DNA from: Hydrurus foetidus
Lineage: Eukaryota
Direction: 5' to 3'
Assembly: GCA_900617105.1 (NCBI GenBank)
Contig: UYFQ01000456.1
Span: 1-34,970 of the forward strand
Length of the DNA: 34,970 nt
Both the position numbers and the translations under genes were made by a program. Positions 6,388-29,988 of the stretch are shown here, in pieces; position 1 is the first letter of the stretch; every line of letters begins with the position of its first letter. The notes below the pieces were generated by a model, which saw nothing but the letters and a program-made list of their open reading frames with translations, did no database searches and was not told the origin of the DNA.

Positions 6388-6726
6388 TTCTACGGTCGAA
6401 ATTAACTTTTAGCGAAGATATTGCTGTGATTAAATTGTGTGGAGGAGTGACAAACCAAGTTTAATTAAAACTTCAAGAAACAAGTCATCCAAAAATATGT
6501 GATCCGTAATCCTTATAAGGCCAATCCTTAACATTATCCAAATTTTTTTACATTTTTATTTTTTTGGATGAATTTTATTTTTTTTTATTTTTTTTTGGAT
6601 AGCGTGCCGTAATACAATTTTATCCGAATACATTTTGGTTCATTTTTTAGGATGACATTTTTGGATAGCGTGCCGTAATATTCATCCATATCAAAATATA
6701 TTTTCATCTAAAAAGATGTTTATTTT

Positions 6727-7139: not shown

Positions 7140-8301
7140 CTTCGCCTTGTTCACGTTTAGGATATTTTCAACGACATCAATCGGCTTTTAAAAAATACTC
7201 ATATGTTGTTACGATAAATAATAGATGAAAATACCAAAACGTAAGTGACAAAAAATTTACTAACGATCGCTGCAGGAGTCTTCGAAAATGTCATGAAGAA
7301 GGATATGCGATTGAAATCATTATCTCTCTCAGCCATAGTGACTTCCCTCTGGTGGAGATTGGTTTCAGTAATCCTTAGAGCACTGATCTCTGTTGTCGAT
7401 TTGGTGGTTCCTTTCAGTTCATTCTCTTTTCTTCTTTGATCATCTCTGCCAAGAGGCTTCTTCCTTCCCTCTGTAACTTCAGGACCATCTTCAATTGCCT
7501 CGTTTACCCAATGAACAGTAGGTTCATCAGAAGGTATAAAAACATATGCCGAGCTGGAGGATGAGCTAGAAGATGAAGTGGCAGATACGACGGCGTTTGA
7601 CGGTGTCACTGAACCAAGGGATGTGTTGAGTGGATCATCAGCTTCCTCCTGTGGATCATCATTTGCCGACTTCCCTCTCACGGAATGGGCTTCCTTGCGA
7701 ACCTCATTTAGGACGTCTCCTTCGTTCTTCCCTGAAGGAATGCCATTCCTTGTAAGCCTATGATTACAGCAGAGAATCAGAAAACGGTAGACAACTTTTG
7801 CTTAACAAATCACTAATCTTTTGTAGATGGGAGTTAGAGTATTGTTGATGTAGGTTTTCATAGAGCTATACTTCTTGCGTATTTTCTCTCCAGTGATTGT
7901 CTCCATTGCTTTGCTGGTACCGACGGTCAAATATAGCAAGGGAATTTTCCTGACACGGCTTCCGAGAACAGGATCTTTGCACCATATATCGTAGAAAAGA
8001 GGAAAGTTGATGACGAACAATTCGTCTTGGGCAGTTTGCGTGCAGTAGCTCTTCGACTGAATAGAGAGACCACATTAACAGATCAATAATCCTTGGATTT
8101 GCTTGATCTCCGCAATCCACGCCTTGAAGAATTTCTGCTGCTGGGCGTCAAGGATTGATAAACCATCACGATTTGACGCCGTGTTTTACCGCGCCGTAGG
8201 CGAACGAGTCGATGAACGAGTTGGCTGCTTGGCAGAAACTTTAGCGCCTCTAGGCTTACCCTTCTTCGGTTGCTTCCCACTCTCAGGTTTCGCTTTCACC
8301 A
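7140..8301 (-). pseudogene. Harbinger partner (Myb/SANT-type ORF1) of the inner element, intron-containing, with in-frame stops
   Basis: MVKAKPESGKQPKK start, ...TGEKIRKKYSSMKTYINNTLTPIYKR, intron (~7759-7815), LTRNGIPSGKNEGDVL...KPLGRDDQRRK. The latter resembles the 'RPxGxK' NAM-associated motif of Harbinger ORF1 proteins. Confidence 0.6.
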
Positions 8302-9135
8302 TTTTTGGTTGATGATATTGTGATCTATGTCTGACGAGGATTCTAAGGGATGTGTCATTTTAGATGGTCAAATCATACTAGGAAAGAGGGACGTTTCCTA
8401 GTATGATTTCGTCATCCGAAAATAAAATGAAATTTCAATTTTCAGGACACGTCATTTTGTATGGTTACGAAATGTCCCCCGGTCAATTCTCATCCAAAAA
8501 AAGAACAAATTATGACTTTTTTGGATACGTTAAGGATTGGCCTGAGGGCTACAGATTTTCAAAACGTATTTTCGATTACAGATATTAGGATTATGATTCC
8601 GTAATCCTTATAAGAGTTTGCACATTACCGATTACGAAAACGATTTTCCGATTAGGTATAAGGTTTGGCCTCATGACAAAAAGGTAGAAAGACGGAAAAA
8701 GACGGACCGATTTTCAGATGAGTGTAAACCGCCCCAAAGACGGGAAGGGCGGTTGTGTCAGTCCCTAGACCCAGCACACTTTTTCGTAGGCCTTTTCAGT
8801 TTAAAAAAACCCTACCCTAAACCTAATTTAACCCTAATGTAGCCCTGAAAGGCTTTGTAAACGGGCTGTCTCGCTGAGCTGGACTAGATAACCTTTCTGA
8901 ACAAAACGTAGGGACACCCATAAACAACTTTCCCGAAAATGATTCTTGTGCGTTTTCGAAAAAGTTTTCGCCACCAACAATTCATCTACCGTACTTCAAA
9001 TTCACTTCTCAAATTTGAATTTTATTGATATAAACACTATCCAGGCAATCTGCAAACGAAAAGTAGCATGTACATTGCTCCTTCAGGCAGCAGCTATCTA
9101 CAATATCAACACGTGAGAGAACTTGATAGTATAGA

Positions 9136-12100
9136 TCACGAGGATTTTTTTGTTTTCTTCCCGCCTTTCTTCTTTTTGATGAGTTTTGCAACAGCTTCTA
9201 GAGCCAAGACTTTATCCGCAGCATCCTTCGCATCGAGGACTTTTAAACTCTTCTCCGCCTTCAGCAGTTTTTCTTTGCAGGCAGCAATCACTGCAGCATT
9301 TGCTCCTGATAATCAACAAGATTAGTGTGTGGGACATACGATCAGAAATTATCGACACCTCTGTTTTTTACATGACGAATGAAAATGAAAATGAAAAATG
9401 CGTGCGTATTTCGGCGCTCAGACACATGTACATACCTAAGATGTCTGCGCCTCCGTAGCTTTTCTTCAATTTTTCCACAGAGGTCTTGAGAAGTACGTAC
9501 GTCTCAGAGTGCAGCCACCGGTGCTCTCCATTATTATCGGGAGGGGGAAGGGGAAACCCTTCAGTTTCCTCAATTTTTCCTACGAAAAGAATGTTTCAGC
9601 ATGAGTTTGAAGATTAAAGAGACCTTTTAAAATATCGATATTTCACTGTGTGATGGACTTCAAGAAGGGAACACGCGAAATGATAAGAGGCGCGAATGAA
9701 GGTCAAGAAGGATGTCCCTTGTGTAATCTACCACTGCAAACGCTGCGGTGTAACATCCACTAGTGAATGCAGTACACTTAAAACTCATACCACTACTGTC
9801 GCACCTGTGTCACACTCTTGCCAATATCCCTCAGGGGGATTGTCCAATGGAAGTCGTACGGTCGGTACGGACAGCATCGCACGGGACATTCCTATTGATG
9901 GCAATAATTTGATTTCATACTGTGAATCTCACACAGATGTTAAATAAATGCATTGAACTAAGATGAAGAGGATTGCAGAAGATGTTACAAAGTCATCTAC
10001 GTAATTTATTTAGCCAGATTTGTTCGTGTAGAATAATGTGCGTACGTACTGATTTGAATTTGGTTTGGATAGATTTGCTCCCAATTTCACTCACTCACCC
10101 AGTTCCGCTTCTAGTCTCTTGAAGAGAACATCTGCTTCATTGACAACCTCTGCAGATGCATCGCTGTCAGCTGACTGGGCAACTGCATCCCTTAGTCTAG
10201 TCATGTCGCGCTCATCCAAATCGGTGGCTTGGGTAACATTGGCAAGTCTACTCGTCAGAGTGGATAATAAGCATTCCACTTGACACCTACATTGAACAGA
10301 AAAATGTATGTAATGATTAGATACGAATAAAACATGAAGAACTGTATTACAGTAGCAGAATATTTCGTGCTCAAAACTCAAACACCTGGGGTCACGTCCA
10401 AATCACCCCACACCATACTAAAAAAGTAAAAAATCTGGGGAACCTTCCCCTTTTTAATTTTTAGTATGGTGTGGGGTCAGTTTTTGACCACGCAACACAC
10501 ACGTTTGAGTTGGATTTTGGGCATCAAAAGCCGACATTATATTCTGCTACAGTAATATCTACAACATTACAATTAGCGAAAATAAGACTTGACACGTAAC
10601 AAAAATCACAAAGCAGTGTTACACTTAATACGCATTTCATATCAAGACTCATTGGTAATAGCACTTATGAAAGGGGTTTTAAAAGTCTATGACATAATTA
10701 ATATCATCACCCCCAGAGTGGGATTATGATCATGGCAAGTGATATAAATTTCAATTAAAAAAGATGGAGTACTCACCGCCTAATGAGATCTCTGCTTATT
10801 TGTAATTGACTTTGATCAATATCCAATAACAAAGATCTACAAATGGTACGTTCCAATTTATGTACGTTCTGTACATACGTAGTTTGGGATCGGATGGGTA
10901 GGCATTGTCGAAGGGCAGCAGTGTCATTGAAGAGGTCTTGAGTCATTTCCAACTTTAAAAGGATTTTTTCCGCTTTTTGAATAATTGCTTCTTCTAGTGC
11001 CCAGTGCAGCGCATCGTTGATAGCATCACTAAGTCTGAAAATCAAAAGGAGAAATATTGGTAATAAAGCGGTTGAGAAATAGTGTGGCAGTAAGCTGTAT
11101 TTTAATTGGTTGACAGTGACAATGGTATACTATTGTTGTATCGAATTACTAGAATGGCAAGTAGCTAATATTTAAATGTCGTATATTTGAAAATTTTCAG
11201 TTATTCATTTCAAATACATTTGAGAAAGGCATTGATACACTGATCTATTCAAACCTTCGTGCGATTTCAGGAATATTCGTGACTGTTCTCTGCGATATAT
11301 CTGCGTCGCATCTAATAGCCTCCTCAAGCGCTGCATTTAATCCATCCACATGTTGCATATACTAACATTGACAAATGCGTGTATAGGACACATGATTAAT
11401 ATAGGCTCGATAATTCGTTTGATTTATAATTCATGATATTCTGTACATTTAAACAACTGAGGATACCCGAAGCATCACAGTTATACAGACGTAGAGTTAA
11501 ACATCCACAGTTAAACTGAGGATCATAAGTGGTGAGTCATGCCGTACCGTGATCATGTTTTGTTCGTGTTTCTGGATGATATCTTGAGCGGTCATAGATG
11601 CACCTTTCTCCATCGCTCCAGCTAAAACTTCTCTGATTTCTTTGTCTATGCAATACAGAATATACAATACGTGAGTAAATAAAATGTGATAGCAATATTT
11701 TCTGTGCAGAATATAGTATTATTCTGTACGACTTCGTTGGTTAGAGTTACATGTGTAAAATATATGATACGGACTTAAAAAAATACGAAAATTAATACAC
11801 AACAGACAACCCCGTCCCCAACACATTGTCAGCGTAACTCTACAAATACGTCATAAGCATTTTTTTACACGGATTCTGACATTCCATTGAGAATCTATGA
11901 TCATTTTGGAATTCATACACAGAAAAATGATTTCCAAAACATGAAAATAGTCTAATCAAACTATGACATAAGCCGATGAGCAAAAACACTTAAGGAGTGC
12001 CCTCAAAGTTTTTATTCAAAATTACCTGTCGCCATGTCGATGGGCAGATTTTTATAAATGTTAACTATGTTTGCGCGTCCTCCATCTTCAACAAGAACCT

Positions 12101-12890
12101 TCAAAATGTGAAGATGGCCATTCACTGCTGCAAGGTGCAGAGAATTATTGCCAAGGTGGTCCCTGTCATTCGCAGAATATCCATCGAGTAACAGAAGCCA
12201 CACAGCTCTTAAGTGTCCCTTTACAACAGCCCATTGAAGAGGTGTATTGAGGAGAAGATTGGTAGACGTCTCCAAGTAGTATTCAATGTCCTCCTCATCT
12301 TCTCCTTCCTGCGGTGAAGAATGCCTTTTCTTGCTCTCCCTATCCGTGTGATCAACTTCGTCATTCGCAGAGCTGTTGTCTGCAGTTTCATAATTCTGAT
12401 TCTCTCCATTTTCATCATTCTGAGCCAACTCTTCAAGATTTTTCTTCCCTTCTATTCCTAATGGACCCTTCTGGGATTTTCTATCCCTCGATTTTGCTTG
12501 CTTAAGCATGCGATGATACGGTGCACTTGCCCCGCATTCGACAAGCCTTTTCAGAAGCTGCATATTTCCATTCTTCGCTGCCCAATGTAGAGCCTGACAA
12601 AAATGCAGAAAATGAAAGCGCTAGTCATGCACACGGATCTCAAATCAACAAGATTGAACGACAGTAATTTACGTCGGCGTAGCCTGCATTATAGGTGATC
12701 ACGTAATACAATGTCTAAAGAACATCTGCAATGTCTACCGTCCAGCCGTTGTTGTTGTCGATGAAAGTAGGCGGAACTTGATCTGCTAGGAATCTCAGAA
12801 CTGTTTCTGTATCGTTTAACTTCGCAGCTTCATATAAATCTGGCTTCAGAAATCGAGGATCCTGATTTGCTGGTTCCTGCTTACGATTGT
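9136..12890 (-). CDS. Multi-exon (about 9) protein with N-terminal ankyrin repeats and a helical C-terminal region; start codon not resolved
   Basis: Ankyrin motifs DLYEAAK, GWT|ALHWAAKNGN, NTPLQWAVVKGH, GNNSLHLAAVNGH. GT-AG exons at approx 12739-12890, 12027-12593, 11549-11650, 11255-11363, 10778-11034, 10099-10280, 9806-9893, 9436-9580 and 9136-9306, ending KKKKGGKKTKKSS*. Confidence 0.8.
10367..10524. mobile_element. Degenerate intronic MITE-like inverted repeat
   Basis: ACCCCACACCATACTAAAAA / TTTTTAGTATGGTGTGGGGT arms plus outer AACTCAAAC / GTTTGAGTT arms. No clear TSD. Confidence 0.6.
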
Positions 12891-13149
12891 CGACAAGAAT
12901 TTGATGAAAACTTTGTGTCGCACATATTCATGATGAAATTCAGGTCGTACAAACTTAGCGATAACTTATTCTTTTGTCAAATTGAAACGCATGCTGCTGT
13001 AGCGCCAATCAAGAAATGCGCAACTTGTATTCTTGTTATAAAGAAAGTGACGACGTGATACGCGTCCAGTGAAATGCTATGTGAACACAATTCTATTTCA
13101 CCTCTCCTTCAGCAGGATCTTCATCCATTTTAAAGTCTCTTTCTTCAAT

Positions 13150-16100
13150 TTAATCTAGCTCCTCCCAGAACCACTGCATGCTGAGAGGAAATGGACTCTA
13201 CCGCATCATGGGGCGAAATCAATGAAGTGGTAAAGATGTAAAGATGTTCTGATGTGATTTCCATCATCTATCATCTATCATCTATCATCGATCAAGATCG
13301 ATCTTGAGAGATGATCGACGAAACGGTCGGAGAGGGTTCAGGCTCCTGGAACTATGGCCAACGATAGATTCCGAAGATTTCATTTGGGAGACTGCAGTAT
13401 ATACTTCGTAACTGAATGTGGCTTGTCATCCATGCCTTATGCTAAAAATTGTTTGTCGTGTGCAAGTGGCTAGCCTTTGTTTACTGCGTGCGCATCACAA
13501 GAGCCTTCTTGAGAAACGGATTCTGCAGATAATCTGAAGTGTCATCTGCTTCATAAAAATAATAACGTCACTTCCTGTGATTTTACACTCGTTTGCTCTT
13601 CAAAGTTCCATGAATGTATGTAAGGTCTGACAAGAAATCCTTAGTAATGTAATTTAGTAGAAATATTTGTAATACAGTGCATGGATCTTGGCTGCATGAA
13701 TACAAAGTAGCGCTGTGTCGCATTGCATAGTATTGAATTGATATGCCGCAACATACGGAATGGTATGCTACCTCATGGATTCTGACTGTTCCTTCAAGAG
13801 CGGTACCGCTGACCTCTGTAGCCGTTTCTCTTCCACTGCTGCGCGTGAGTATGCACCGAAGAGCACTTCCATTTCCTCTCTGTGTGTGCTGACTAGGTCA
13901 GAGTACAATGGGGAACTCCTCAACCCCCCTCCCTCTCTCTCTATCTCCGTGGCATCATCAGTGCCACTCGATCCCGTCCCAGTACCACTACTCTCTGCGC
14001 CTTCAAAGTCGATCAGTTCGAAGGTCAGCTTGACCAAACTAGATCTGCTGGAAGGGAGCTCCACTTCAACCACCTTACATCTCCCGCAGTACAGGAACTG
14101 AGCAGCGCCAGGTCGGGCGAATAGAAGCACTAATTTATCCGGAGTGGCCTCCTAGGAAAGGAAAGGGATAGGAGATAGAAGAGACGGTGAGAAAGTTGCC
14201 TCTCGGATGATATTGATGGCATTCAATTGTAGCGCATTTAGTTACCTCTGGTTTGCTGCTGTCTGCCACTGAATTAGGTGCAAGTAAACCTCTTGCTATC
14301 TCACTCTCACCGTCTGACACATCAAATAGAATAGAATACAATAGAATAGAGTCAGCCAACAGGTTTAAACGGCTGGTCTCAGAACTACTGTACGTTAGTA
14401 TTGGATATGTATCAGTTAACAATGATGCTGGATGTTGAGTATGTACGAGAACAATACAGTATAATATTTAAACACGTAATACTGATATGAAGTAACTAAT
14501 CACCTGCCCATCTCCTCGCATCGACAAACCATGTGAAGTACTGTCCGTCTATCAAGAACTGATTTGCGTACTTCCTCATCGAGGCTGGAGCTCTGATAGA
14601 TGAGGGAGAAAGAGAGTGCACGGAATTAATGGGGATAAGGTACATTATGTTATGCAAGGGTGGAGCAGTGTAGAATAGGAAAGGATGGGGAAACAGCTAG
14701 ATAATCGATAAGATTAGATGACATGATGTAAAATAAGAAGATAAAACAAGATAAATAAGATAAATAACCTTGAATAAATGGAGTTAAGCGGTAGATTAAG
14801 AAGGGGCAAGATCATGTAAGTTCGGAAAACCGACAAGACATATGAGAAAAAGACACAAACGAAAAGTGGAGCGAGGTTTCCGAGTAAAAGAAATACGTCA
14901 GCACTACTGCACACAGAGCAGGTTGATCTGAGGAGTGCTGCAATGCTGGCAGTCTACGAGATACACTTGAGGGGAACAAAGCGATAAGAAATAGAATGTC
15001 TGAGAAGTCCATCTAATGGATGACGAATTAATGAACAAAGGTGGGTAGCGATGATGAGCAGCTGTGAGTGTACCTGTCAGCACCGCCGTCATCAAAGCAG
15101 TTAATGAAGAGAATCATAGCATTGCCTATAGCAGCAACACCTGCAGGTGTATAATAGAAAATAATGGGGGAAAAGTAAATATTGAGGCAAGATGAATGAC
15201 ACTTATCGGAGGAAGTGAACGAAGTTTAGAGGGTTGTAATTTTGATATTTAATTATGAGAATTGCAGAGAAATGGGCGCATAAATTAAAGAAAAATGCTG
15301 GACAGAAATTCTGAAGTATTTTAATTGAACACAACACTAATGATATGTACTGAAACAAAAAGAAGGTGCTCAATCATATAAATAAAGGCAAGCTGAGCTT
15401 AGCCACGTTAATTTAAAATGTTTGAAAGAAGATAGAAGATAGTAATACCTGACCGGTCATTGAGCCCTTTCAGAGCGGCCACCTTTGCTTCTTCTAATAG
15501 GATAGATGGACTGTCGTAAGCAACACTAACAACTCCCTCTACCTCTACCTCTACCTCTCCTTTCTTTTCTCCCTCTACTGTACCTTGACTATCTTCTTCA
15601 CTATCTACTCCACTTCCACTATCTTCAACTACATTTGCCCTAGAAGTCTGATTGGAATCGTCTGAAATTTCAAGTGATGAATTCTGTGGCCCTACAGTCG
15701 CAGCAGCGTTATCTACACTGTTCTCCGCCACAGCATTACCGTCTACAATTGGGACTGACGAATCAACACCGTGTAACTCCGCCACTGAGAGGCAGAATTG
15801 AACGCACATGAATTTGGATTTCCCTGTTGGTCTTCCCAACAGCTGATACAGTCTGTGGTGGTTGACGATTAAAGAAGGTGCAACAGCAGGTTGGCCATTC
15901 TCTGTTCTACGTGTATTCTGCAGAGCGCTTTTTGTTCCGGTTCGAATAGGCGGGGAGAACAGATTGGATGCTGGAGTACAGGGAGTTTACGGTATAATGG
16001 TTAGATCCGTTATAACACACATCATTATTCAAGTTAGAGGGGGTTATGCTGATCTGTATGGAAGGAGTTGCTCGTGTACAATGATGTCAAAACCAGTTAT

Positions 16101-19100
16101 ATTTGGTACAATACTATCTCAGTGATTCAAAAGAGGTATAAGAAAGAGTAGATTACATTCCATTTAAAAAATACTGCTGACGATTTTTTTCTGATGTCAA
16201 GATGTCTAACAGATCTCCTACAGTGCGGTAAAATGTGCACAGATGTGTATAGCGATGTGTACTGTTTGTGCTGTCTATGGCTCACCGCTGAGCAGATCCG
16301 ATCTTGCCTCGAGGTCTCTACCCCTTTTGCCCATCTCCCTCTCCCTCTCCATCTCTGTACCTTCGTCATCACCGCTGAGAGAACGGTCCTGGGATACGAG
16401 GAGGAGATGTTGAAATGATTGCAGAGAGGAGGAGTTTTAGTGGAGTATAGTGAATTACTGTAAGGGAATGCCAGTAGAATAAGATGGGGTAGATTAGGGT
16501 AGAGTGGACCAAGGTACAAAAGTATAGATTAGAGTATAGAGTATAGATGTATAGAATAGGGGACGGTAGGGTAGAACGAACTGGAATGGTAACAGAATAT
16601 CTTAGCGCACAATTTACGCTACATGCCAAGTACAAAGCTTCCATTTTTCTTAAGCGGTGAGGATTCAGTCTACAACGCATGGAATTAAGTATGGCATTGC
16701 AGTCGTATACGATTTTAACAATTTCACTGAACAATGTGGAACATGCTATTCCAGGCATTTCCTTCCCAAATGCGTTACAGAGTAAATTGGGATAGGTAAG
16801 GTTGTAGCGTAAGTACATATATCTTGCACACAATTTCCGTACGTACTTTCTGTAGTGTGGGTGCGGAAGGCTCTTTCTTTCCCCCAAAGGTCCAGGATTG
16901 AATAGAAAGAATAGTCTCTAAAACTAGCCGGTTCTTGCCGTTAGTTACCGGAGTTCTCAGAATAGCTCCGGTTAATTTCTCCTCCTCATCATAGCTTAAC
17001 TCATTGCTTCCTACCTTCACGTGCTCCTCATCATTGCCAGCCTGTCGATCGAATTAATAATATTGAGAAAGGGATTAATTTATTACGTATAAATTAATCA
17101 GTCATTTGGCATGTGCAGAAGAATCCAGATTCGAGAAATCAGAAGAGGTTTGAGTGTTACGTGCCTCGTAACTCCCCTCTGCATCTTCATGTAGAGCGAC
17201 TTCCTGAGACTCTTTTTCCTCTTCCATCTCCTTCTCCCTCTCCATCTCCCTCTCCGTCTCTGTAGGGTCTAGGGGTGTCAGCTGGGCAGCAGTGCTGTCT
17301 GTGGTTATCACTGCACTAGTGCGTGAGTCGACAGGAGGGGCGAAGAAAGGGTGTTTTGTATGCAGTATGGAGAATTTGTAGTTTACACGTAGACGGGGCA
17401 TCTACAGATAGATGAGGGAAAAGGAGAGAAAAGAGGAGATTAGTTAGACTACTTGATATGGACAGAAAAGGGACTTTCTCACAGTGAGGAATCTAGTAAA
17501 GGATATATTAAGAATATGTTACACTTCAAGAAATCCGTATGTTATCATGTTTTAACAACTCTAGGAACAGGAACAGCGTCACTCGACAGATCAAGGAACG
17601 TGTTTAATTGCTGATCCACTTTTAATCTGGACCCACCCCTATACACGACAATTCACACATAGAAACTGTACCGTACAGTTTTCAGTTTTCAGTACGGCAC
17701 ACTTAATTCTCGTTATAGGGGTGGGTCCAGATTGAAAATGAATGTATGATGAACTAGGAGCTTTGCGCGGTATCGCGTATTGTAGAAGCAGCATTGGAAA
17801 GGAACATGCAATGTACAGTACAGCTGCTTACCTTGTCGAAGAGATTTCTCACTGAGGAGAGTGCGGATGCGGGACTGGAGAGCAAGCAGTCGAAGAGCTT
17901 CAACAGCACAGCTGCATCAAGTGCAGCATACGTCACCTGAAGTGTGTGTGTTTGTATTTGTGTGTGTTTAGGGAGGGGGGGTTTAGTGAGGGATGTGATG
18001 TGGTGAGGTGAGATGTGGTGAGATGTGGTTTTGCTTGGGTTGCAGGATGTGATTGTGTGGGGCGGTGCGAAGATCGAAACGCACGTGAATTGAGGCGAAG
18101 TGGCCTCATGTGCACTAGGACACGAAAGGAGATGTGGCAAGGATGTGATGTGATGTGAGGTGAGGTGAATAGAATTATACAGTGTGTTGCATGCAGTGAG
18201 TGTGGACATGTGAAACAAAATTGAGCAGCGTTATCCCTATACACAAGCAGTGATGTGATGTGATGTGATGTGATGTGTTGTGATGTGATAGGAACAACTC
18301 TGTCAATCGCCACTCACAAACCCCTACGAATCATCTTCGATTACACCCTGGTCACAACATCACTGACATCTTCGCAACAATAAATCTACAAACCAACAAG
18401 TGATTCCTAACAAGGGCCGTACCTGATCAGCGGTGAGCGGCCTAACGTGCCAAGGGGAGCACTGCTGGGTTTTGTTCAGTCTGACCCCGAGAGCTACCCC
18501 ACACAGCTTGGTGAGACTGAGATCCACAGAAGGTGCGCGTGGAAGAGTAGATGTAGGATCGACCGCACGGCCCTTAAGGGTAGAGAATGAGAATGAAGTC
18601 AAAAATCGCTTTGAAAATCCTGTAATATAAGCCTATTTTATTGCTCTGCAAATCCTTTTTTTATACTGCTCAATTCAAAGTTCATAGACGGTCAAATATA
18701 TGGATTATAGAAAATCGGTGTGGTTTGATATACATCCGAAGACAAGAAGTTACCTGGGGGAAGGCTGCTTTGCTGAGGGGTGCGAGGTCGATGACGTGTG
18801 TGACTCGTTGAAAGCACAGCATGTGCGGGTACGATGCGGCCAACTTACGTAAATCTTGCTCAACAGAAAACCCTACAGGGATACATCAAGAAATATGAAT
18901 GCCGATGAGGAGGGGTGTGATGAGTGCATTTGGGGAGGTGTGAATGGAGGCATGATTTTATGCGAAAATGAGTCAGGGAAAGAACGGAAGAAACGAGATA
19001 CAAACATAGCAATCAAAATCCGTGGGTGGATGAAATGCAACAAAAAAGAAGACTTTCGGTAGAAAAAGAAAAGCAAAAGCGATGGAGAGAAGTAAGATTA

Positions 19101-19127
19101 AAGGGACAGCTGGAAAGAATAAATAGA

Positions 19128-19162
<35 letters not shown>

Positions 19163-22100
19163 ATAGGGTTGAGTGGCAACAGAATACGAGAGAAGCAACA
19201 GAGGTCTAGACACTGTGCGTACAGAAAATACAGAGTATCTCAAGGAACGTGTTCAATTGCTGATCCACTTTTAATGCCAGACCCAGCCCTATAAACGACA
19301 ATCCACACATTCTCTGTACCGTACAGGCAAAAAAAATAGTACGGTACAGAGAGTGTGTGGATTGTCGTTTATAGGGGTGGGTCTGGCATTGAAAGTGGAT
19401 CAGCAATTAAACATGTTCCTTGATCTTTACTGGTCGGATCTGTCACGTACGCAGCGACTTTACACAAGTTGAATTACAGATGGAGTGAGAAGTAAAGTGT
19501 ATGAATCATTCAAATGACGAGCGCTATGGAAAGTGGGATATTGAAGTGTAATTAAATTTTAAATGTGTTCGTACCCAGTATGGCTATCCTATTATGAGAG
19601 AATAATTCGCCCACAGCAGCACACAGAGCCGCCTCTTCTTCGTTCAGTGTTCCTTGAGATACCGGGAATATTCTGTATTCCTCTTCGTTGGTAGGAGCTG
19701 TCGAGTTGTATTGGGTGTTTTCCGCATTGTTCTCGTCTGCTGACTGTATTTCATATACACTGCTAATGCGAGGGATATCAACAACAGCACCGTTTATATC
19801 ATCACCACTAAGACCTTGACTCCCCTTATCTTCATCAATTATTCTAGTGACGTCACCCGAGAGCGCGAGCATATCAACGATAAACACCTCATCTCTCAAG
19901 GCAAGTTGAAGTGTCGCCACTGGATAATCAGATTTGGGCCCTTGATTCATATTCTCCAACAGTTTTGCTTTTGCTCCGTATACTCGGGGTCGCCATTCGC
20001 AGTCCAAACCCACCGCACACAGGTCTGTACAAGGCAGCAATTAGCAGTGTCAAAACAGCGATAGATATAGCAGGTGCAGAGAGTGATAATACAGCCTTAT
20101 CTTACGGTGGAGCAATGTTGATGATAGATAAATAAATAAACAAACACATGTAAACAAATAAACAAATAAACAAACAAACAAACATACATACATACATAAA
20201 AGAAAGTACATAAACAAACATACATAAAAGAAAGTACATAAACATACATACATAAAAGAAAGTACATAAACATACATACATAAAAGAAAGTACATAAACA
20301 TACATACATAAAAGAAAGTACATAAACATACATACATAAAAGAAAGTACATAAACATACATACATAAAAGAAAGTACATAAACATGCATACATAAAAGAA
20401 AGTACATAAACATACATACATAAAAGAAAGTACATAAACATACATACATAAAAGAAAGTACATAAACATACATACATAAAAGAAAGTACATAAACAAACA
20501 TACATAAAAGAAAGTACATAAAGATCCATACATAAAAGAAAGTACATAAAGATACATAAACATACGTGAGTGAGTGAGTTGTTAAACGAGGAAAGAAAAA
20601 CGAAATATTGAAAGGAAGTCAAGAGTAGGACAGGACATGTTAAAGTGAACAGATAAACAGAGACACTGGTGACGTAAATAGATGTAAATGGCGTCAACTT
20701 ACCTTCCATCGCTGATCCAGAGGAAGAAGCCTGTTTAGAAAGATTCCTAACAGCTTCAGCAAAGCGAAGAATCTTGGGCAGATCATCCACAACAGTTACT
20801 GGCATAGGGGTAGGAAGGGGGACAGAGGTAGAGGTAGGGGATGCATCACTGATTGCGTTGGACAGTGCTCCAGATCCAATGATGTTGATAGTCTCCATTG
20901 TAAGCACAGGCAGTTCATCTCTCTCTGCTACGGTGTTCTCGCTAGTGTCAAGTCCATCCTGCACTGAGCTTTGTCCTTCACCCACACCCTGCACCGCCCC
21001 CATCACCCCCTCTGTTTTCCCTTCTGCACTCCCACTCTGTGGGTCGTAAATACGGTCCATAAAATTATCATCTAGACTTGTGGATTTCGGACCGTCCCTT
21101 CCGATCCCCTTGGGTCTGGAACTGGGTGGTCCAGGGACCCCTGAACCTAGTACTAAATCGTACACGCTTGCAGGAGCGGTTTCGATAAAGTTTTCTTGGA
21201 GCACTCGAATACGACTGACAACGAAATCCATGGTCTTGAATTCTTCCAGATTTTGTCGACCTTTTTCGCCGTTAGCACCTTGAGGTATTAGATATGCTGA
21301 TTAGGAAGGTGGGTTTAGAAAATGGGACGTAATGTTATTGTGTAAATGATGGTGAAACATCATTCTGCGCTTCTAATGCTTCAAAAGGAAAAAACAGAAT
21401 ACATTAACATCAAAGATAAACAGAACACAGTACTTAATAAGATGAAATATCATGCAGTATTCAATGCACGTACAGTACGGTGCAGTACGTTACCTAGGCG
21501 TCCACTGACAAGCACCAGTTGGCCGCACTTTAAATTCTTGCAGAAAGCTGTCGCAACTTCCTCTCCCAACTCTTCTCTCATGGTTTTTCCAATAACTAGT
21601 TGCAACGCATGGGGATCGGCTAACATGTTACTACTATCTTTTTTAGGTGCGACAAATCCAGGCGAAGTGTAATTGAAGATTTTATCGTTTTCTCTGTTTC
21701 TGTTAACTTTACTGGAGTAGATATTTTCGGAGTCTACTAGATCAGGCGCTGTCGGAACGATGTCGCAATTTAAAGGTGCGGAGGCCATCCATGCGTACTT
21801 GTCCAAATCCTATTGATTTTATCCGGTAATTTTTATCAAATATCATAACACTTATTGAATTATGTTATGTTTACGCAGCTCAAAAATATAGTACAAGTTT
21901 GAATAAAGTCTGGCAGTCAAATAGCCTCAGTAGACGATGCAATCGACCAAATAAAAAAAACATCTCTGAACAACAGTTATATGAATTGCACACTAATTCA
22001 CAACCTTACCCCCATTTGTTCAACGATCATTCCTTCCCTCGGGGGAATGATGTTGGCAAACACTAACGCTTTGCCTATTTGTCTCTTCGAAATAATCACT

Positions 22101-25100
22101 CCTGCAGGCACGATCAACGCAAATTTAATTTATCATGCTAAATGACGCTACTTGCAGTGAGAAGAATTGAATTGAATCATATTTGTTGCGGTGATAATGT
22201 AAAGGGTGATCATGTTACAACTGGTCTACGATCATATTCCTCGCAGAAGATGGATATCGAACAAGAGGTTGCACAAAGGACCGCCACAAGATTGGAGTAT
22301 TGTTTGATAATTATTTTGTCTTGCGTAGTTTATGTAATTTACTGCAGAATGCTGCAGAATAACCGATTACTCTGTTCCGGTATAGTTACGGAGTGAGTCA
22401 TTATGTTTTGCGTCATTACATCAAGCTTTCAGCGCAAATACAAGAAATTAAAACAAACACGGTATTACCCACATTGTCCAAATGATCATAATCATGGTGT
22501 TGTATGGATGCGAAGTAAGATGTATGCGGACATTGTGACTCACCTACTATGTGCACCATGCCGGTAACAGCATCAATGCACGGAAGGGGAACGCTCTCTA
22601 GTTGCTTGATGCGCTCTTCGTATCTCTCCGCTTCAGTGAGCGTAGCGGGAGATACCCAATTGAATTCATTAAGCATATCAGCCTTGGAGGGAATAGATAC
22701 TGGGACCATTCCGGGGATTATGTCTGAGACAGAAGGGGTGGAGATAGAGGTAGAGGTGGAGGGGGCAGGGGTGGATTGGGGGTCGGTGGTGCTTGTTTGT
22801 GCGATACTTTGGATTTCAATGTCTCTGACTGGTGGTCTTACTAGATCCCCCCCACTCATCACTACTCCCTCACCCTCCACACCTCCTCCTTCTCCTCCTC
22901 CTCCAGTGATTCCATCCTCTACAGCCGTATTTGATCCACTCTCCTCGGCACATTTATCTCCGCTAATTTGGGACCAGTACTGTCTTCTTCGTGTGTCCTC
23001 TGTTGTTGGGAACATGCTACGCAATCTTCCACTTGCATCTACTTGAGACCCGCCCGCACTATCGTCACCAACTACAGCACTTGAAGTTGATGTTGAAGTT
23101 GGGTTTATTTGTTCCAGTGCAGCAGCTGTCTCTGCTCTGTTTCGATTGTTGTTGTTGCTGCGTGATACAGTAACGATTAGACGATTAGTCATTACATCAC
23201 ATCCTAAGCACAATACGAATAAACATAGGTATTTAAAAGTTATAAAATATATCTTAAATACATATATTTTAGCGATTCATAATAAATATCGAACACGATT
23301 GAAATTGCATAGATAACACCTTCTTCTATCAAGACAATGCGGTTGATAATCTGCTCCGTGACTCGTTCAACAATCGGAACGATAACGGCATATTTTATCC
23401 GTCTCATTCTTACCACATTATTTCTCTGAACATGGGAGTGGTGGGATGTACGCTACGCACACGTACAGTAGTGTCGCCACTGATAGCAGCGTCTGTCAAA
23501 GCTGCAATATCTGAAGTGACGAAGAAAAGAAAAGAATGAAGATATATTGAGGTGTACGTACGTGTATTGATGTTGGGGCAAGGCATAATTTTAATTCATT
23601 TTAATTCTTAATAATGTATACTTAGTCTCCTGTGATTCACTGCTATTCCAAGTGAAATGGGTGACATTTGATACCCAACTAAATTCAAAAATTCTCGAAA
23701 ACAAGCTTTTTGTGTAGAGTTGACTTTTATGAAGTAAATGGGATGGACATGAGCGGGAGAGTGTTCGAGGCGCAGTGCATTATAGCATACACTCTTATGA
23801 ATTATGCTCAACTCTTTTTTGTGTCGAACGTAATCAACCTATAGGAGATACAATCTAAAGAGAGACATGCTGTTATTGAGAATGTAGTTAAGATTTTTTA
23901 GCGCTCTTGACAGGATGCACTGTACCGTATATGTCTCATATCAATGCCACCTTCATCGAACCTAACTACGTTATACCCTATTCTTATGATGTATGTCTTT
24001 TCATACCACAACACAATTTATCAGGTCATTTGACATCACACTGTATAACATCGACTTCTCCTCTCTTCTTTTCTCTTTTCTTCTCTATTTTACCCTGACT
24101 TATCTTACCCTCACCTCCCTACCCTTGACTGATCTTATCGTGATAAACATTATCTGAACTTATCTATCCGCTTATCCCAGCATTATCTTGTATTATCTCA
24201 TGTCAGTGAAATTCATCTCCATTTTCAGGGTCGTGTTTAATTTATTCATTCGACGTTTTTGATCGGGTACCAGCCCCCCACACAACAACACACAGCATTC
24301 TTCATGACTGAAAAAAATTTATTCCCAAGGGGACCGCCCTGCATGAAAAATGCTGTGTTGTTGTGTGGGGGTCTGGCACCCGATTAAAAACGACAAATGA
24401 ATAAATTAAACACGACCCTTGATCTAGAAACAACAAACGCACATTACTCATGACTAATTACACCTACACCTTCTTGATCCTCACCTTGTGAGCTCTCTGC
24501 TGTGCGGAATGGATTGTCACCCATATTGACGTCATCTAGGAATCTAGGGTCTAGGTCCCCATAGGGTTTGCCATCGCTGTGGCTCAGACGGTAATTATCC
24601 CAGGGAAGCTGAAATAAAGAACAGTGATTTTACTTTAGAGATTTACATTGCAATTGCAATTCAAGGATTCGAATAAAAAGAACGATAATGTACAGAGTGA
24701 AAAGCAGATAATTAATAATGTTAGCCTGTATGATCAGTATTACAATCAGCAACAAATATTATCAGAAAATAAGTGTCTCATTAAATCTCACCTCTTTTTG
24801 CGCTTTTTCTGCTTCTTCGATTAACATGATGGTTTCTTCTTTAAGATGACTCACAGCAAGACTTAAAGGTGTCTGTCCTTTATTATTCACAATTTTCACT
24901 TTTGCACCTCTTTTTAAGAATTCTAGTACAATTTCATCTCTGTTTCTTGTGATGGAGAAGAAAAGTGCACTCTTTCCGTAATTGCCTATTATTTCAAATT
25001 ACGGCTTCTGTGAAGAACGGTATGTAGGTATGAAGTTGGAGATCTTTGGAAGTGATTCTACTTACAATATTAATAGACTATAATAGATAACATTTTACTA

Positions 25101-26786
25101 ATGAGAAAAACGAGTTAAATTTGCTTGCCTTACTATTATAATCAATAATCGAGTCTGATGAAATACAAGCTAAGCTTACCTGGACTGTTGCTGTGCATAT
25201 CGATGGGGACGCCTCTGTCAAGCAGGGCGGTAACGTGAGAAAGAGGACCTTTCCATGCTGCCAAGTGCAGTGCTGACTTGCCCGATGGTGTGGTGCTAAT
25301 ATGTGGGGGATACACAGCAGCTAATTTATTGACATCTTAGGCAGATTATGTGTTGTTTCGCGAATGGTGAAGTGTTGTAACAAATTTGATGACGGTTTTC
25401 ACGTGATGAACGTGCTGTGCTGCACGTGTAGGCATAAAAAACAAACATAATCTAATAAATCTTAATGAATAAACAAGTGCAATTTTGTCATTCATGCAGT
25501 TTAAAGATAGGAGAGAGATGAAAGAACTACCTGCTGAGCTGTCCCGCAAATGAAGAAGGACTCGCATCGTACAGTGACAACATTTGGAAAAATGGATTAC
25601 TGTCCTGAAGCATCGAGAAATCCCTCAAAAGTTTTGCTGAAAATACTGGTAGACCTGCATTTGAGACAGCTGTTAGCCACCTTTCTTTTCGAATCGCTTT
25701 CATGGTTCCCACACTCGTACTCGCGCCTACTCCACTTTCCCCTTTAGGTCTCGGAACAGGAGGTTGGAATAGATAGGGTGAGCCATTGCTCTCATCTCTC
25801 CCTGTTGATAATTGTGATGATAATCTCTCTCTTCGGTTTTTTCTAGGAGGGTAGATCTGCTGCTCAGCTTTTTCAATGGCTTCAGAATCATTAACAGGAA
25901 CAGCAGAGGAATCACTCGTATTGATCACTGTTGCAGTACTGCTGATGTCCACAACTGCTGCAGAAGACAGTCTACAAAAATCAGCTACGGAAATAAACAG
26001 TTGCAATCCGACTTCTCCACCCCCTCCATAAATAAAGTTCTGCTCTAGATCTACTGAAGAAGATTCTGAGCTAAGAATACTCTTGTCAGCAATCGTCCTC
26101 ATTGGGTGCGCCAGTCCCACTGGAGGCACGTTACCCAGCTGAAAACCTGATATGCAGTAGAAATACAGTAAATACAATTCATCAGAATGTATCGCAATCA
26201 CATATAAGATCTCATGGTAATGAGAAATAGCGAGATTAAGGAAGTTAATATTCACTGTAGATTGCAGTACTTATTGGACTGCGGAAGAATGCTGATAAAG
26301 TGCTTTCAATCACTACCCAGATAATTGTTTCTACTTCATACCTCCTAGCTGCACTGCCCTCTCACGGCTCGCCAATGAAATATCCTCGATGGAGGCGCCA
26401 CAATGTTGAGCAAGAAGAGCTACATCCACTTGCTTCGCAATGTCTAAGACGATGAGCATCGGACATCCGTTGTATTCCCATATAAGAGATTTCACTTCAA
26501 CGCTATTCGGTACGGGGACCGCATCAAAAGGGACTAAGCTAGCACTGGTTTTCTTCACATCAACGAACGACTTCAGAATGTTCGGTTTACTGCCATACTC
26601 AGTGGACATCTGCAACCTTTGATTTCTGTTCAGATCAAATTTACGGAAGCGACTAAAACTGATGGATTTGACTGACACACATCTTCTCCGGGATAAAGCA
26701 GAGATGCTACTCAAGCTGACGTAAAAGAAGAAAGAAATCTTTATGAACGTAGAAACGACGCACTGCCCGCTTTTACATATCATCAC
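13150..26786 (-). CDS. ~23-exon, ~1,900-aa multidomain protein: presequence, YbaK/INS aminoacyl-tRNA deacylase, ankyrin repeats, OB fold, DEDDy 3'-5' exonuclease (RNase D/Mut-7/EXD3-like), DUF3427/PUA-like domain
   Basis: Manual splicing gives compatible phases at every junction. Approx exons: 26342-26786, 25531-26147, 25181-25295, 24792-24985, 24485-24609, 23413-23510, 22543-23157, 22009-22102, 21494-21809, 20703-21297, 19576-20024, 18754-18872, 18423-18572, 17832-17936, 17165-17401, 16847-17041, 16286-16389, 15449-15971, 15074-15141, 14504-14593, 14245-14313, 13772-14152, 13150-13180. Motifs: VKSL..GFQLGNVPPVG..YGGGG (YbaK); GKSALHLAAWKG, GKSALFFS, GQTPLSLA (ANK); VGVIISKRQIGKALVFANI..LQLVI..GQLVLVSG (OB); GLDCEW, EQDL, QCSPWHVRPLTADQVTYAALDA (ExoI-III). 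The last exon and one GC donor are less certain. Confidence 0.8.
17594..17743. mobile_element. Truncated MITE, same family as 19243-19420 (intronic)
   Basis: TCA|AGGAACGTGTTTAATTGCTGATCCACTTTTAAT..GACCCACCCCTATA. The right arm TATAGGGGTGGGTCCAGATTGAAAATG lacks its terminus. Confidence 0.8.
17990..18290. repeat. Intronic (GATGT)n/(GAGGT)n pentamer microsatellite patches
   Basis: GTGATGTGATGTGATG runs at ~17992-18030, 18142-18168 and 18250-18288. Confidence 0.8.
19118..19164. repeat. (TAAA)n microsatellite
   Basis: Direct inspection. Confidence 0.9.
19243..19420. mobile_element. Complete foldback MITE (178 bp, intronic), Harbinger/Tourist-like
   Basis: AGGAACGTGTTCAATTGCTGATCCACTTT... / ...AAAGTGGATCAGCAATTAAACATGTTCCT, arms ~80 bp, flanked by TCA and TGA. 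Confidence 0.9.
20195..20558. repeat. 28-bp minisatellite, ~13 copies (CATAAAAGAAAGTACATAAACATACATA), intronic
   Basis: Exact 28-bp period from 20195 to 20531+, preceded by a (TAAA/CAAA/CATA)n microsatellite from ~20125. Confidence 0.95.
24227..24419. mobile_element. Foldback MITE (193 bp, intronic), termini related to the 19243 family
   Basis: AGGGTCGTGTTTAATTTATTCATT / AATGAATAAATTAAACACGACCCT, inner arms CCCCCACACAACAACAC / GTGTTGTTGTGTGGGGG, followed by TGA. Confidence 0.88.
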
Positions 26787-27580: not shown

Positions 27581-29649
27581 CTACGCTGTTTGGGTTAGTC
27601 TTTCATCTTCACCTTCTACATTATCTCTCGTGGTATTACCAACTGTAGAGCCCTTATTTTTCTTGCTGATGAATAGTTTATCAAGCAAAGAAAAGTCATT
27701 GCTGATTTTCATTTGGTCCATAGCATGACTGATTTCATGTTTTCTCGTCAAAGTCATTTTAACTTCGTCCTTATGCTTGCACAAAATCTCATGCCGCTGC
27801 CTCTGTATATTGTCATATCGGTTTTCAGCGTCTTCAATCCGCTTAAGAGTTTGCAGTCTATGAAATTCATTCATACGGGCTACACGCTCAACATTTTCAA
27901 TTTTATCGTGGATCCGCATATCTAAAAATGGAGAGTACAGAATTTAGTACGAATTTAACCCGTATCTGGATCATAAACACTAATTTGCAAGTTTTCGATT
28001 AAGGTCAGTAGAGCATTTTGGAAATAATCGTAGAAGATAAGAAATAGTCATACCTGACGCAAACTTTAGCATTGCTTGATGGGCGTCTCTCTCTGACTGA
28101 ACTCTCTCGTACGTCTTATCTTTCTCCAGCCTTCGGTCTACAATGTCTTTTCGATGGCCGGACCGGGTTTTATAAGCATCTAAGAGTCTGCTGAGCCGTT
28201 GTTTGTTTTTTCTATCTCTGTCATCACCTAGTTTTTTTTGTTTCAATTTCTCTCCACTCATCACTTCCCCTGCACGCATTCCCGCTTCCTTCTGCCTCTC
28301 GAAGAACTTGATCTTTCTATCTTCGTGAAGAATATGGTGTCTCTCAAGAGCTTCTCCGATGCGCTTGGTGGCTTTCTCTTTTTCATTGCGCACCTCTTCT
28401 CTTTTTGTTTCACGTTTCTCTTGGAGCTGATTCTGCACTCTAGATTCTCGCTCCAGCAATTTCAGTCTATGAAAACAGTTTTCATTCGTCAGCAAAGCAA
28501 AGCTGCATAAAAAAATGTCATGCAGTGACTAACAATTGTGTTACCTGTTTATCGCTGCTTGTTCTATTTGCCCCTGTATTAGAATATCTGTTTTTCTACG
28601 AGATTCTTCTATTTTGCTATTTCGCTCCTCATCTCGCTGACGTATCTGATTAATAAATAAATATAGAATTAGCCAAGATGTCAGGTTTACTATCTGATAA
28701 ATTACAAAAACCGAGCACGCAATACCTCTCTGATAGACTTCTTCTCTGCCTCAATAGCAGTGTTCTTCATTTTTTGGTCGAAATCCTGATCTTTCCTCGC
28801 TAGATCTTTTTTCTTCATTGTCTCTTCTTTATCCAATCGATCTAATTCTTGCATTCTCGATATGTTTTTTCTAGTCGCTAGAGCTTTCTGATCAGCGACC
28901 TTCTTTTCATGAGCTTTCCTCTTCAGGACGTCTTCGTCCTCGACTCTCTTAATTTTCATCTGAAGTGTTGCCATGATTTGCTCCCTTTCAACAATCTTCG
29001 AAAGCTCTTTCTCTTGCCGTCTCTTCAAAGCCTCTATGCGACGCTCCTCCTGCAATTTTGAGATTATGTTGGAGTGTCATTGCATGGGGTGCGTTCGACA
29101 TCCAAACACAGAATCTAGTGTGCTGGTCTTCCTTCGGAGACATTTGAAATCAATCATAAAACAAACGCAAACTTCTTTCTAGGTACCATATCGAGTAGCG
29201 TTGATTCTTTTTGAGTGCCCTCCCTGATGTTCACAATATTATTGTTTGGGGTTTGCGGTGGACTCGACAAATTCATCATTTGATTATGCCTTTCGGCGTA
29301 TTGAATGATCGAATTTCGTTCCACTTTGACGATCGCTACTTTTTCTGTTCACACGATCCAACAGAAAATAACGGTGACTAAACATCAGGTGCTTCATGGA
29401 AAAACTGGCGTTTTCGTCGTTGAAATTTCACGGGACCTGCTTACCTTGCCGCTTTTTCTCATAATTCTCGTGTTTGATCTCGATCATAACTTTCGTAAGT
29501 TTCTTTGACGCAAATCTCTCGTACGCTTTCGGGAACAACTCAGATGGATCAAGCCCTGATCTGAGACATGATTCCAAGCTACGTGGACTGTTGATTTCGC
29601 GTGCTGTTTCCCCATCCTCAAAGTTTTCGACAGAGATGAGAACATCCAT
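27581..29649 (-). CDS. Multi-exon coiled-coil protein with a CCDC177-like N-terminal motif (possibly flagellar/cytoskeletal)
   Basis: MDVLISVENFED..INSPRSLESCLRSGLDPSEL resembles the SPRSLEAC..PxEL motif of CCDC177/CCDC185-like proteins. E/K/R-rich exons at approx 29445-29649, 29186-29345, 28726-29050, 28546-28646, 28053-28469 and 27581-27921. Confidence 0.75.
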
Positions 29650-29988
29650 CACGTAAGAAAATGAACTGTTTAATTCCCGCGAGCTAAAATCGCTGTTGAG
29701 CGATTGCAAGGCTCCTTTGATGTTTCAGACATCAAGAAGACATCGTTTTGATGTTTCTGTTATGGCAGATAACTTCTTCTACGGTGCCAATTCCAAAAAA
29801 TTCACAGCACTTGCTGCTCTGGCTCGGCTCTCGACTCTCGACTCTCGACTCTCTCGTCGTGCGCGTGGGCGAAACGGTCGAGAAATGATATTGTTGGAGT
29901 GCCGTATACAGCATACAGTATACTAGGCTATTATTTGTAGTGCGTGCAAATTTCTGCCGTATGGAACTGGTACCGTCCTGGTACCATT

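What the first reader, a model, noticed from the sequence alone, without database searches (positions are those of the whole stretch)
13150..26786. Five-domain fusion (YbaK deacylase + ANK + OB + RNase D/Mut-7-type exonuclease + DUF3427-like): candidate single-chain tRNA surveillance machine
Seen: about 23 exons join with consistent phases into one ~1,900-aa ORF, although the ORF track shows only scattered fragments, and all DEDDy catalytic residues are intact. Established: YbaK/ProXp (INS superfamily) domains hydrolyse mischarged aminoacyl-tRNA; OB folds of this pattern bind anticodons in Asp/Asn/Lys-tRNA synthetases; DEDDy enzymes include RNase D, which trims tRNA 3' ends and needs a free 3'-OH. 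Inference: the domains form a coherent pathway (bind tRNA, read modification state, deacylate, then trim or degrade the 3' end). I do not know of a characterised protein with this architecture, but cannot rule one out.
Basis: partly seen in the sequence, partly recalled or inferred. Interest (0 to 1): 0.88.

Follow-up and report, generated by a model that had tools for sequence, protein, structure and literature searches.

The report
Algal plastid tRNA-end nuclease, five domains
One 23-exon gene, likely from a golden-brown alga, encodes a single protein joining a tRNA-proofreading-type domain, ankyrin repeats, an OB fold, an intact 3'-5' exonuclease and an SRA-type base-reader fold; it belongs to a widespread, unstudied algal family that is predicted to enter the plastid and likely trims tRNA ends there.

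Summary
The gene is real. 23 minus-strand exons (21 GT-AG introns, one strong GC-AG) give a 1,917-aa frame; only the last exon is uncertain. A Dinobryon protein is colinear over all five domains. Uninterrupted reading frames in relatives link YbaK through the exonuclease, and the exonuclease to the C-terminal domain. The YbaK lysine, GXXXP loop and DEDDy residues are intact and nearly invariant in 63 relatives.

- The nuclease is Mut-7/Nibbler-type, not RNase D.
- The OB fold is confirmed, but anticodon-type versus SSB-type is unresolved.
- The last domain is an SRA fold whose solved relatives all read modified DNA.

The family spans chrysophytes, diatoms and Tetraselmis. Named diatom proteins lack the OB. 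A second, ankyrin-less clade keeps the OB but has Asn in place of the YbaK lysine.

Best reading (about 45%): a plastid exoribonuclease for tRNA 3' ends, whose YbaK domain grips and likely deacylates the acceptor end. No transcript or activity was tested, and my paper searches found no description.

The parts
13470..26783 (-). Whole gene, 23 exons: 26783-26342, 26146-25531, 25295-25180, 24985-24792, 24608-24485, 23510-23414, 23157-22544, 22101-22010, 21809-21494, 21296-20703, 20024-19575, 18872-18754, 18572-18423, 17936-17832, 17401-17165, 17041-16847, 16388-16286, 15970-15449, 15140-15074, 14592-14504, 14313-14246, 14151-13772, 13533-13470 (last exon uncertain)
   Evidence: phases, splice ends; colinear with Dinobryon P0012 and single-frame P0014; junction support
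26610..26783 (-). Predicted bipartite plastid presequence, aa 1-58: hydrophobic stretch, ISA|L site at aa 27-30, then a basic, acid-free stretch
   Evidence: crude test positive in 32 of 74 family N-termini against 30 of 1,354 internal-Met controls; rule from PMC12136025 passages; SignalP/ASAFind not run
25959..26504 (-). YbaK/INS-superfamily domain, aa 94-210 (exons 1-2), with Lys98 (26492-26490) and GXXXP aa 152-156 (26135-26121)
   Evidence: Pfam tRNA_edit halves on exons 1 and 2, E 0.01 and 0.007; family profile hits PDB YbaK 1dbu at 4.6e-8
24537..25643 (-). Ankyrin module with a family-specific C-terminal YGDLDPRF extension, aa 316-480 (exons 2-5); the best-conserved part of the family
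   Evidence: Pfam Ank; 49% mean pairwise identity, 37 of 170 columns at >=90% in 63 proteins; best PDB stretches stop before the extension
21190..22565 (-). OB fold, aa 728-906 (exons 7-10), with conserved R741, F749, Q835 and D894
   Evidence: AlphaFold model of the orthologous domain from L001, pLDDT 81; Foldseek and VIA hits are OB folds; Atlas PF01336 at 0.90; conservation
17880..20796 (-). DEDDy 3'-5' exonuclease of Mut-7/Nibbler/EXD3 type, aa 1038-1327 (exons 10-14)
   Evidence: Pfam DNA_pol_A_exo1 on exon 13, E 0.0017; PDB Nibbler 7jw2 at 3.5e-26; D 63/63, E 63/63, D 62/62, Y 57/60, D 58/60
14017..15839 (-). SRA-fold (DUF3427-like) domain, about aa 1566-1815 (exons 18-22), with a low-complexity insert of about 110 aa
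   Evidence: AlphaFold model of the orthologous region from L015, pLDDT 79; AspBHI Z 9.8, rmsd 3.0, 133 aligned; Foldseek; Atlas DUF3427 at 0.90
17042..17164 (-). Intron 15, GC-AG; without it the frame stops at 17102, after the exonuclease and before the SRA domain

Best explanation
The gene encodes one five-domain protein with intact YbaK and DEDDy residues that is predicted to be imported into the plastid and likely works there as a 3'-5' exoribonuclease for tRNA 3' ends. Shown: the single frame, the five folds, the catalytic residues and their conservation. Inferred: the presequence sends it to the plastid; the YbaK domain grips the aminoacyl-CCA end and probably hydrolyses the amino acid, freeing the 3'-OH; the Mut-7-type domain then trims or degrades from that end; the OB helps hold the tRNA body or anticodon loop. 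The conserved ankyrin-GDLD module likely binds a fixed ligand or partner and may gate the nuclease. The SRA domain is an accessory nucleic-acid tether that some lineages lack. Direct hand-over from deacylase to nuclease is the least certain step.
For: One chain: P0014 aligns to model aa 1-1362 in one BLAST segment from a single uninterrupted frame (E 8e-160); P0188 links ankyrin-OB-exonuclease-SRA in one frame; Dinobryon P0012 has all five. YbaK Lys 61/61, GXXXP Gly 61/62 and Pro 57/61 in 63 non-redundant ankyrin-type proteins; these are the features all characterised INS members use (PMC11286415 passages). The nuclease is closest to Nibbler, which is specific for single-stranded RNA (PMC11347159 passage). 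tRNA-type domains recur on the same core: YbaK in most members, and CysS_C at the N-terminus of P0038 (E 2.3e-7), P0043, P0172 and L005 (E about 1e-3). The OB keeps R 40/44, F 41/44, Q 41/45 and D/E 43/45, the pattern of class IIb anticodon readers (Phe127 and Glu188 of yeast AspRS in PMC9976931 passages; Arg and Gln recalled). Best Foldseek TM-scores are AspRS, 0.45-0.48 against <=0.39 for SSB; 30 of 50 VIA rows are Lys/Asp/AsnRS entries, many redundant. Presequence enrichment 32/74 against 30/1,354.
Against: No transcript, localisation or activity data. The SRA fold matches only DNA-reading proteins (15 of 15 chains at Z>=5), and DUF3427 is described as a modified-DNA recognition domain (PMC6765204 passages). 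The OB subtype is tied: Foldseek's top 13 E-values are SSB/PriB, VIA Z values lie within 1 of each other, and the profile test gave SSB E 0.0012 against LysRS 0.0072. An ankyrin-less clade keeps YbaK with Asn at the lysine position in 17 of 18 readable sequences, so deacylation is dispensable there. The OB is absent from the named diatom ankyrin-type proteins and the SRA from Tetraselmis. WRN (DNA) and EXD2 exonucleases are the next PDB hits after Nibbler. The window's own presequence has Leu at +1 and a modest hydrophobic core (12% of internal windows score as high).
Confidence: 0.45

Rival explanations
1. It is a plastid RNA 3'-maturation nuclease for tRNA precursors and other structured RNAs. 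The YbaK domain only senses a CCA or acceptor end, for example to stop trimming at the mature end, and does not deacylate.
For: The YbaK domain persists without its lysine in a whole clade of YbaK-OB-exonuclease-SRA proteins. YbaK is the least conserved of the three core domains, 33% against 40% for the exonuclease and 49% for ankyrin. Nibbler-type enzymes are trimmers of single-stranded RNA ends.
Against: In the ankyrin-type proteins, which include this one, the lysine is invariant (61/61) together with GXXXP.
Confidence: 0.25
2. It acts on plastid DNA: an SSB-like OB, an SRA base reader and a WRN-like 3'-5' exonuclease form a nucleoid repair or resection enzyme, and YbaK is a passenger.
For: All SRA matches are DNA readers. 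The OB ties with SSB/PriB/PolC. WRN exonuclease is the second family hit, E 1e-16. The SRA domain's nearest stand-alone relatives are small eukaryotic proteins with basic, nuclear-looking N-termini.
Against: Nibbler scores ten orders of magnitude better than WRN. YbaK is kept in both paralogous clades while OB and SRA are each lost in some. CysS_C appears on the same core.
Confidence: 0.14
3. The domains share one import signal but work independently: a trans-editing deacylase for plastid translation and an unrelated RNA-decay nuclease on one chain.
For: Long low-complexity linkers separate the domains. Relatives lack YbaK altogether (Ostreococcus-type ankyrin-exonuclease-RING P0018; CysS_C type).
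Against: The YbaK-exonuclease order is kept from Tetraselmis to chrysophytes and both diatom-type clades, which suggests a reason to stay joined.
Confidence: 0.11
4. In this organism the main product ends after the exonuclease (stop at 17102) or the locus is two genes, so the five-domain chain is partly an artefact of the model.
For: Intron 15 needs a GC donor; introns 16 and 17 have no bridging relative; no RNA data.
Against: The GC donor is strong. Exons 16 and 18 carry family motifs in order. Exonuclease and SRA are continuous in P0012, P0188 and 56 of 97 proteins newly found with the full YbaK-ankyrin-exonuclease-SRA order.
Confidence: 0.05

Closest known systems
Nibbler / MUT-7 / EXD3 DEDDy exoribonucleases (PDB 7jw2, 7jw6)
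   Same: Best PDB match of the nuclease profile (E 3.5e-26), with all DEDDy residues.
   Different: No MUT7-C domain was found by Pfam; instead it has YbaK, ankyrin, OB and SRA domains and a predicted plastid presequence. Passages read from the MUT-7 paper mention neither tRNA nor ankyrin.
INS-superfamily trans-editing proteins (YbaK 1dbu/2dxa, APE2540 1wdv, ProXp-x 2cx5, MCP3)
   Same: Fold-level sequence match (E 4.6e-8 to 3e-7) with the conserved Lys and GXXXP.
   Different: A 2024 review describes them as single-domain proteins apart from ProRS fusions and a plant C-terminal extension (PMC11295145 passages). Here the domain is fused to a nuclease and fits no subfamily clearly (P0012 scores 16 bits against a 153-bit YbaK cut-off).
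SRA/DUF3427 domains of modification-dependent restriction enzymes (AspBHI, LpnPI, SauUSI, MspJI) and SUVH5/UHRF1
   Same: Same fold: Z 8.3-9.8, rmsd about 3 A.
   Different: Joined to an exonuclease in a predicted plastid protein; pocket and ligand untested; 10-16% identity.
Anticodon-binding OB of class IIb synthetases (AspRS, AsnRS, LysRS)
   Same: OB fold, highest TM-scores and identities among hits, and an R-F-Q-D/E pattern.
   Different: Large insert between strands 2 and 3; tied with SSB/PriB in Z and profile tests.
E. coli RNase D
   Same: DEDDy fold; a tRNA 3'-end nuclease (recalled).
   Different: Weak match (E 2.7e-6); no HRDC domain in the Pfam scans.

Membership tests
INS/YbaK superfamily | YbaK fold by sequence | tested here: met
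   tRNA_edit in 14 of 24 aligned relatives, best 1.6e-14; PDB 1dbu 4.6e-8; both halves on window exons 1-2
INS/YbaK superfamily | Conserved lysine and GXXXP loop | tested here: met
   Window K98 and G152-P156; K 61/61, G 61/62, P 57/61; criterion
INS/YbaK superfamily | Aminoacyl-tRNA hydrolysis | not testable with these tools
   needs an assay
YbaK in the strict sense (Cys-tRNA deacylase, TIGR00011) | Score over the family cut-off; free-standing bacterial protein | tested here: not met
   P0012 16.3 bits against 153.25; 12 of 24 members match, best E 9.6e-10; multidomain eukaryotic protein
Mut-7/Nibbler/EXD3 | DEDDy domain closest to Nibbler, catalytic residues intact | tested here: met
Mut-7/Nibbler/EXD3 | MUT7-C domain (in most MUT-7 homologues, absent in Nibbler) | tested here: not met
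   no Mut7-C hit in Pfam scans of 24, 16 and 16 relatives
Mut-7/Nibbler/EXD3 | Specificity for single-stranded RNA | not testable with these tools
   needs an assay
RNase D | rnd family score and HRDC domains | tested here: not met
   P0012 28 bits against 299; no HRDC
Class IIb anticodon-binding OB | OB fold | tested here: met
   (model of an orthologue, not of the window's own domain)
Class IIb anticodon-binding OB | Closer to synthetase OBs than to SSB-type OBs | tested here: inconclusive
   Atlas PF01336 0.90; Z ties; hhalign SSB E 0.0012, LysRS E 0.0072; no PF01336 hit at E<=0.1 in 24 relatives
SRA/DUF3427 base readers | SRA fold | tested here: met
   Pfam DUF3427 on profile hits P0388 (9.7e-10) and P0377 (0.004)
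SRA/DUF3427 base readers | Intact pocket for a flipped modified base | not testable with these tools
   no coordinates are returned
Ochrophyte plastid-targeted proteins | Signal peptide followed by F/W/Y/L at +1 and a transit-like stretch | tested here: met
   crude script only: window ISA|L; 32 of 74 against 30 of 1,354

The most novel reading that the evidence does not exclude
Algal plastids carry a single-chain 'uncharge and destroy' machine: YbaK strips the amino acid from faulty aminoacyl-tRNAs picked out by the OB and SRA domains, and hands the freed end to a Nibbler-type nuclease, gated by a ligand-binding ankyrin module. The window holds the complete five-domain form, which diatoms split into an ankyrin copy with an active deacylase and an OB copy with a dead one. 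This would be the first coupled deacylation-decay pathway in an organelle and the first SRA domain reading RNA.
Probability: 0.2. Interest if true: 0.9.

Novelty: new variant of a known kind. Interest (0 to 1): 0.7.

Why it matters
How plastids of diatoms and golden algae mature, check and turn over tRNA is largely unstudied (my knowledge), and characterised INS editing domains are free-standing or joined to ProRS. A conserved nuclease carrying an editing domain names a concrete candidate enzyme, with intronless diatom orthologues that can be knocked out and assayed. The two diatom-type paralogues, one with and one without the YbaK lysine, give a natural test of catalysis versus binding. An SRA fold in a plastid protein raises the question of what it reads there.

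Tried and rejected
No whole genome is held for the window, and no RNA reads could be examined, so splicing rests on sequence signals and relatives.

Pfam found no OB or DUF3427 match on any of 22 window exons or in 24 relatives. PDB sequence searches found nothing for the SRA region and only chance hits for the OB. Both domains needed structure prediction.

RNase D identity was rejected. A prokaryotic or viral orthologue was not found: 7 of 16 pattern matches in genome contigs were generic ankyrins covering only the first 56 of 92 positions, and 0 of 106 in viral contigs. These pattern scans are insensitive.

Read-through into the downstream ankyrin gene was rejected: the acceptor nearest to it leads to a stop at 13150.

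The first LysRS/SSB profile comparison picked only 1 of 4 LysRS and 2 of 5 SSB sequences and favoured LysRS. Repeated with 4 and 5 it slightly favoured SSB, so it decides nothing.

The full likelihood tree did not finish. FastTree trees leave deep branches open, so no order of domain gains or losses is claimed. The supplement of the ochrophyte plastid-proteome paper PMC5462543 could not be read and may list this family.
Full report
1. The observation. Three-frame reading of the minus strand gave 23 exons from 26783 to 13470 that join into 1,917 aa without a stop. All acceptors are AG. One donor is GC; it scores among the best on a matrix from the other 21 and is the only positive in-phase site of 13 in exon 15. 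No genome or RNA reads were available.

2. One chain. A search with exon 4 returned 21 proteins among 130 candidates. P0012, from Dinobryon divergens, is colinear with the model across all five domains. It may itself be a predicted gene model, and it is the only other full five-domain protein I found. P0014 is one uninterrupted frame aligning to model aa 1-1362 (E 8e-160). P0005 crosses introns 2-6 in one frame. 18 of 22 junctions are bridged by some relative under a lax criterion, six of them weakly. P0188 joins ankyrin, OB, exonuclease and SRA in one frame, and loci L003 and L007 carry all five domains in order across several frames. The window protein groups with P0014 (SH 98-99) near Dinobryon-like sequences with weak support, so a chrysophyte source is likely, not shown.

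3. The domains. YbaK: Pfam tRNA_edit is split over exons 1 and 2, and the family profile hits YbaK, APE2540 and 2cx5 in the PDB. Lys and GXXXP, the features named in PMC11286415 (passages), are nearly invariant in 63 non-redundant relatives. Ankyrin: two to three repeats plus a YGDLDPRF extension with no PDB match; at 49% identity it is better conserved than the nuclease (40%) or YbaK (33%). OB: an orthologue's domain folds as an OB barrel, pLDDT 81. Atlas, TM-scores and an R-F-Q-D/E pattern lean towards synthetase anticodon domains, but E-values, Z-scores and a profile test tie it with SSB/PriB. Exonuclease: closest to Nibbler (3.5e-26), then WRN (1e-16), EXD2 (1e-14), and RNase D far behind (2.7e-6). 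C-terminus: an orthologue's region folds as an SRA domain; all 15 of 48,161 chains at Z>=5 are SRA domains of DNA-reading proteins. PMC6765204 (passages) links DUF3427 to modified-DNA recognition and lists PUA and EVE, not SRA, as the RNA binders of the superfamily.

4. Location. The window protein begins with a hydrophobic stretch, an ISA|L site and a basic acid-free stretch. A crude bipartite-signal test was positive in 32 of 74 non-redundant N-termini and 30 of 1,354 internal-Met controls. Many negatives are short and probably start at an internal Met. The +1 rule (F, Y, W or L) is from PMC12136025 (passages). Organellar synthetases in diatoms are often dual-targeted (PMC4494062 passages), so mitochondria are not excluded.

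5. The family. A profile of the ankyrin signature gave 422 hits at E<=1e-20 among 7,996 scored candidates; I saw the best 120. Of 97 new proteins analysed (one generic ankyrin protein dropped), 56 are YbaK-ankyrin-exonuclease-SRA without OB, including named diatoms (Seminavis, Cylindrotheca, Ditylum). Four are YbaK-ankyrin-OB-exonuclease, including Tetraselmis striata. Other members carry CysS_C or RING instead of YbaK; one of that CysS_C-side clade is named MAST-4. A search with the SRA profile gave 362 hits, of which 150 were listed. Among them are 24 ankyrin-less OB-exonuclease proteins, 21 with a YbaK hit. 17 of the 18 with a readable motif have Asn for the lysine; 13 of the 14 put in the tree form one clade (SH 100), and the one with Lys lies outside it. 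These are unnamed; earlier scan notes call such proteins diatom. The Lys and ankyrin loss is one event and shows no co-evolution. No prokaryotic or viral orthologue turned up.

6. Mechanism. YbaK-exonuclease is the constant pair across both large clades, and a second synthetase-derived domain (CysS_C) occurs on the same ankyrin-exonuclease core. This points to tRNA 3' ends. I put 0.45 on a plastid tRNA-end exoribonuclease whose YbaK domain grips and probably deacylates the acceptor end, 0.25 on a maturation trimmer with a non-catalytic YbaK, 0.14 on a DNA-acting enzyme, 0.11 on independent activities and 0.05 on a shorter or split gene. The ankyrin module's conservation suggests a fixed ligand; RNase L, whose ankyrin repeats bind an activator, is a recalled analogy only.

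7. Literature. Full-text searches found 0 papers for YbaK+ankyrin+exonuclease, 0 for ProXp+trans-editing+fused+exonuclease and 0 for YbaK+Phaeodactylum. None of the 25 listed of 192 held YbaK, and the listings showed no such fusion. The review PMC11295145 (passages) calls INS members single-domain apart from ProRS-related cases. PMC12021450 (abstract) reports an OB fold with deacylase activity in a different protein family. PMC11347159 was read as two passages. Term look-ups in PMC3973320 and PMC10424219 returned nothing. The library lacks most subscription papers, and the supplement of PMC5462543 was unreadable. Database names are automatic ('Exonuclease mut-7', 'Ankyrin repeat').

8. Verdict. 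A real, conserved and apparently undescribed architecture built from known domains, probably the most complete member of an algal plastid nuclease family. The function is inferred. Interest 0.7.

Noticed in passing
P0358-P0431 (one search hits): An ankyrin-less YbaK-OB-exonuclease-SRA clade with Asn in place of the YbaK lysine in 17 of 18 readable sequences: a likely catalytically dead editing domain kept on an intact nuclease.
   Followed up: partly
P0366, P0388, P0394, P0403, P0405, P0406, P0429: Stand-alone eukaryote-like proteins of about 300 aa with this SRA/DUF3427 domain behind a shared charged N-terminal motif and basic stretches; possible undescribed nuclear base readers.
   Followed up: partly
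P0195-P0197, P0199, P0200: Members with a tandem duplication of YbaK-ankyrin, or of the ankyrin module, before the exonuclease (one named Seminavis robusta).
   Followed up: no
P0038, P0043, P0172, L005:3806-8053: CysS_C (CysRS anticodon-binding-like) N-terminus on an ankyrin-ankyrin-exonuclease form of the family.
   Followed up: partly
window 19240-19423, 24227-24419, 17591-17743, 3805-4245: Short hairpin elements (MITE-like) with near-perfect inverted arms; three lie in introns 11, 5 and 14 of the gene, and those at 17591 and 19240 share 36 nt ends.
   Followed up: partly
window 4957-6408 (-) and 34147-34968 (+): Two PIF/Harbinger-type transposases (Pfam Plant_tran; DDE_Tnp_4 on the first); an unassigned ORF region at 7199-8147 sits between 54-nt inverted repeats at 6518 and 8490.
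   Followed up: partly
window 31139-34105 (-): Copia-type retrotransposon pol frame, 988 aa (RVT_2, SH3_retrovirus).
   Followed up: partly
window 20120-20570: A 28-nt tandem repeat of about 16 copies in intron 10.
   Followed up: no
window about 9000-13130 (-): A separate multi-exon ankyrin-repeat gene starts directly downstream, on the same strand.
   Followed up: partly
window 1-2100 (-): Long frames rich in Arg/Asp/Asn repeats at 53% GC, unlike the rest of the window; not identified.
   Followed up: no
window 27581-29724 (-): Upstream multi-exon gene for a charged, coiled-coil-like protein; one exon scanned had no Pfam match.
   Followed up: partly
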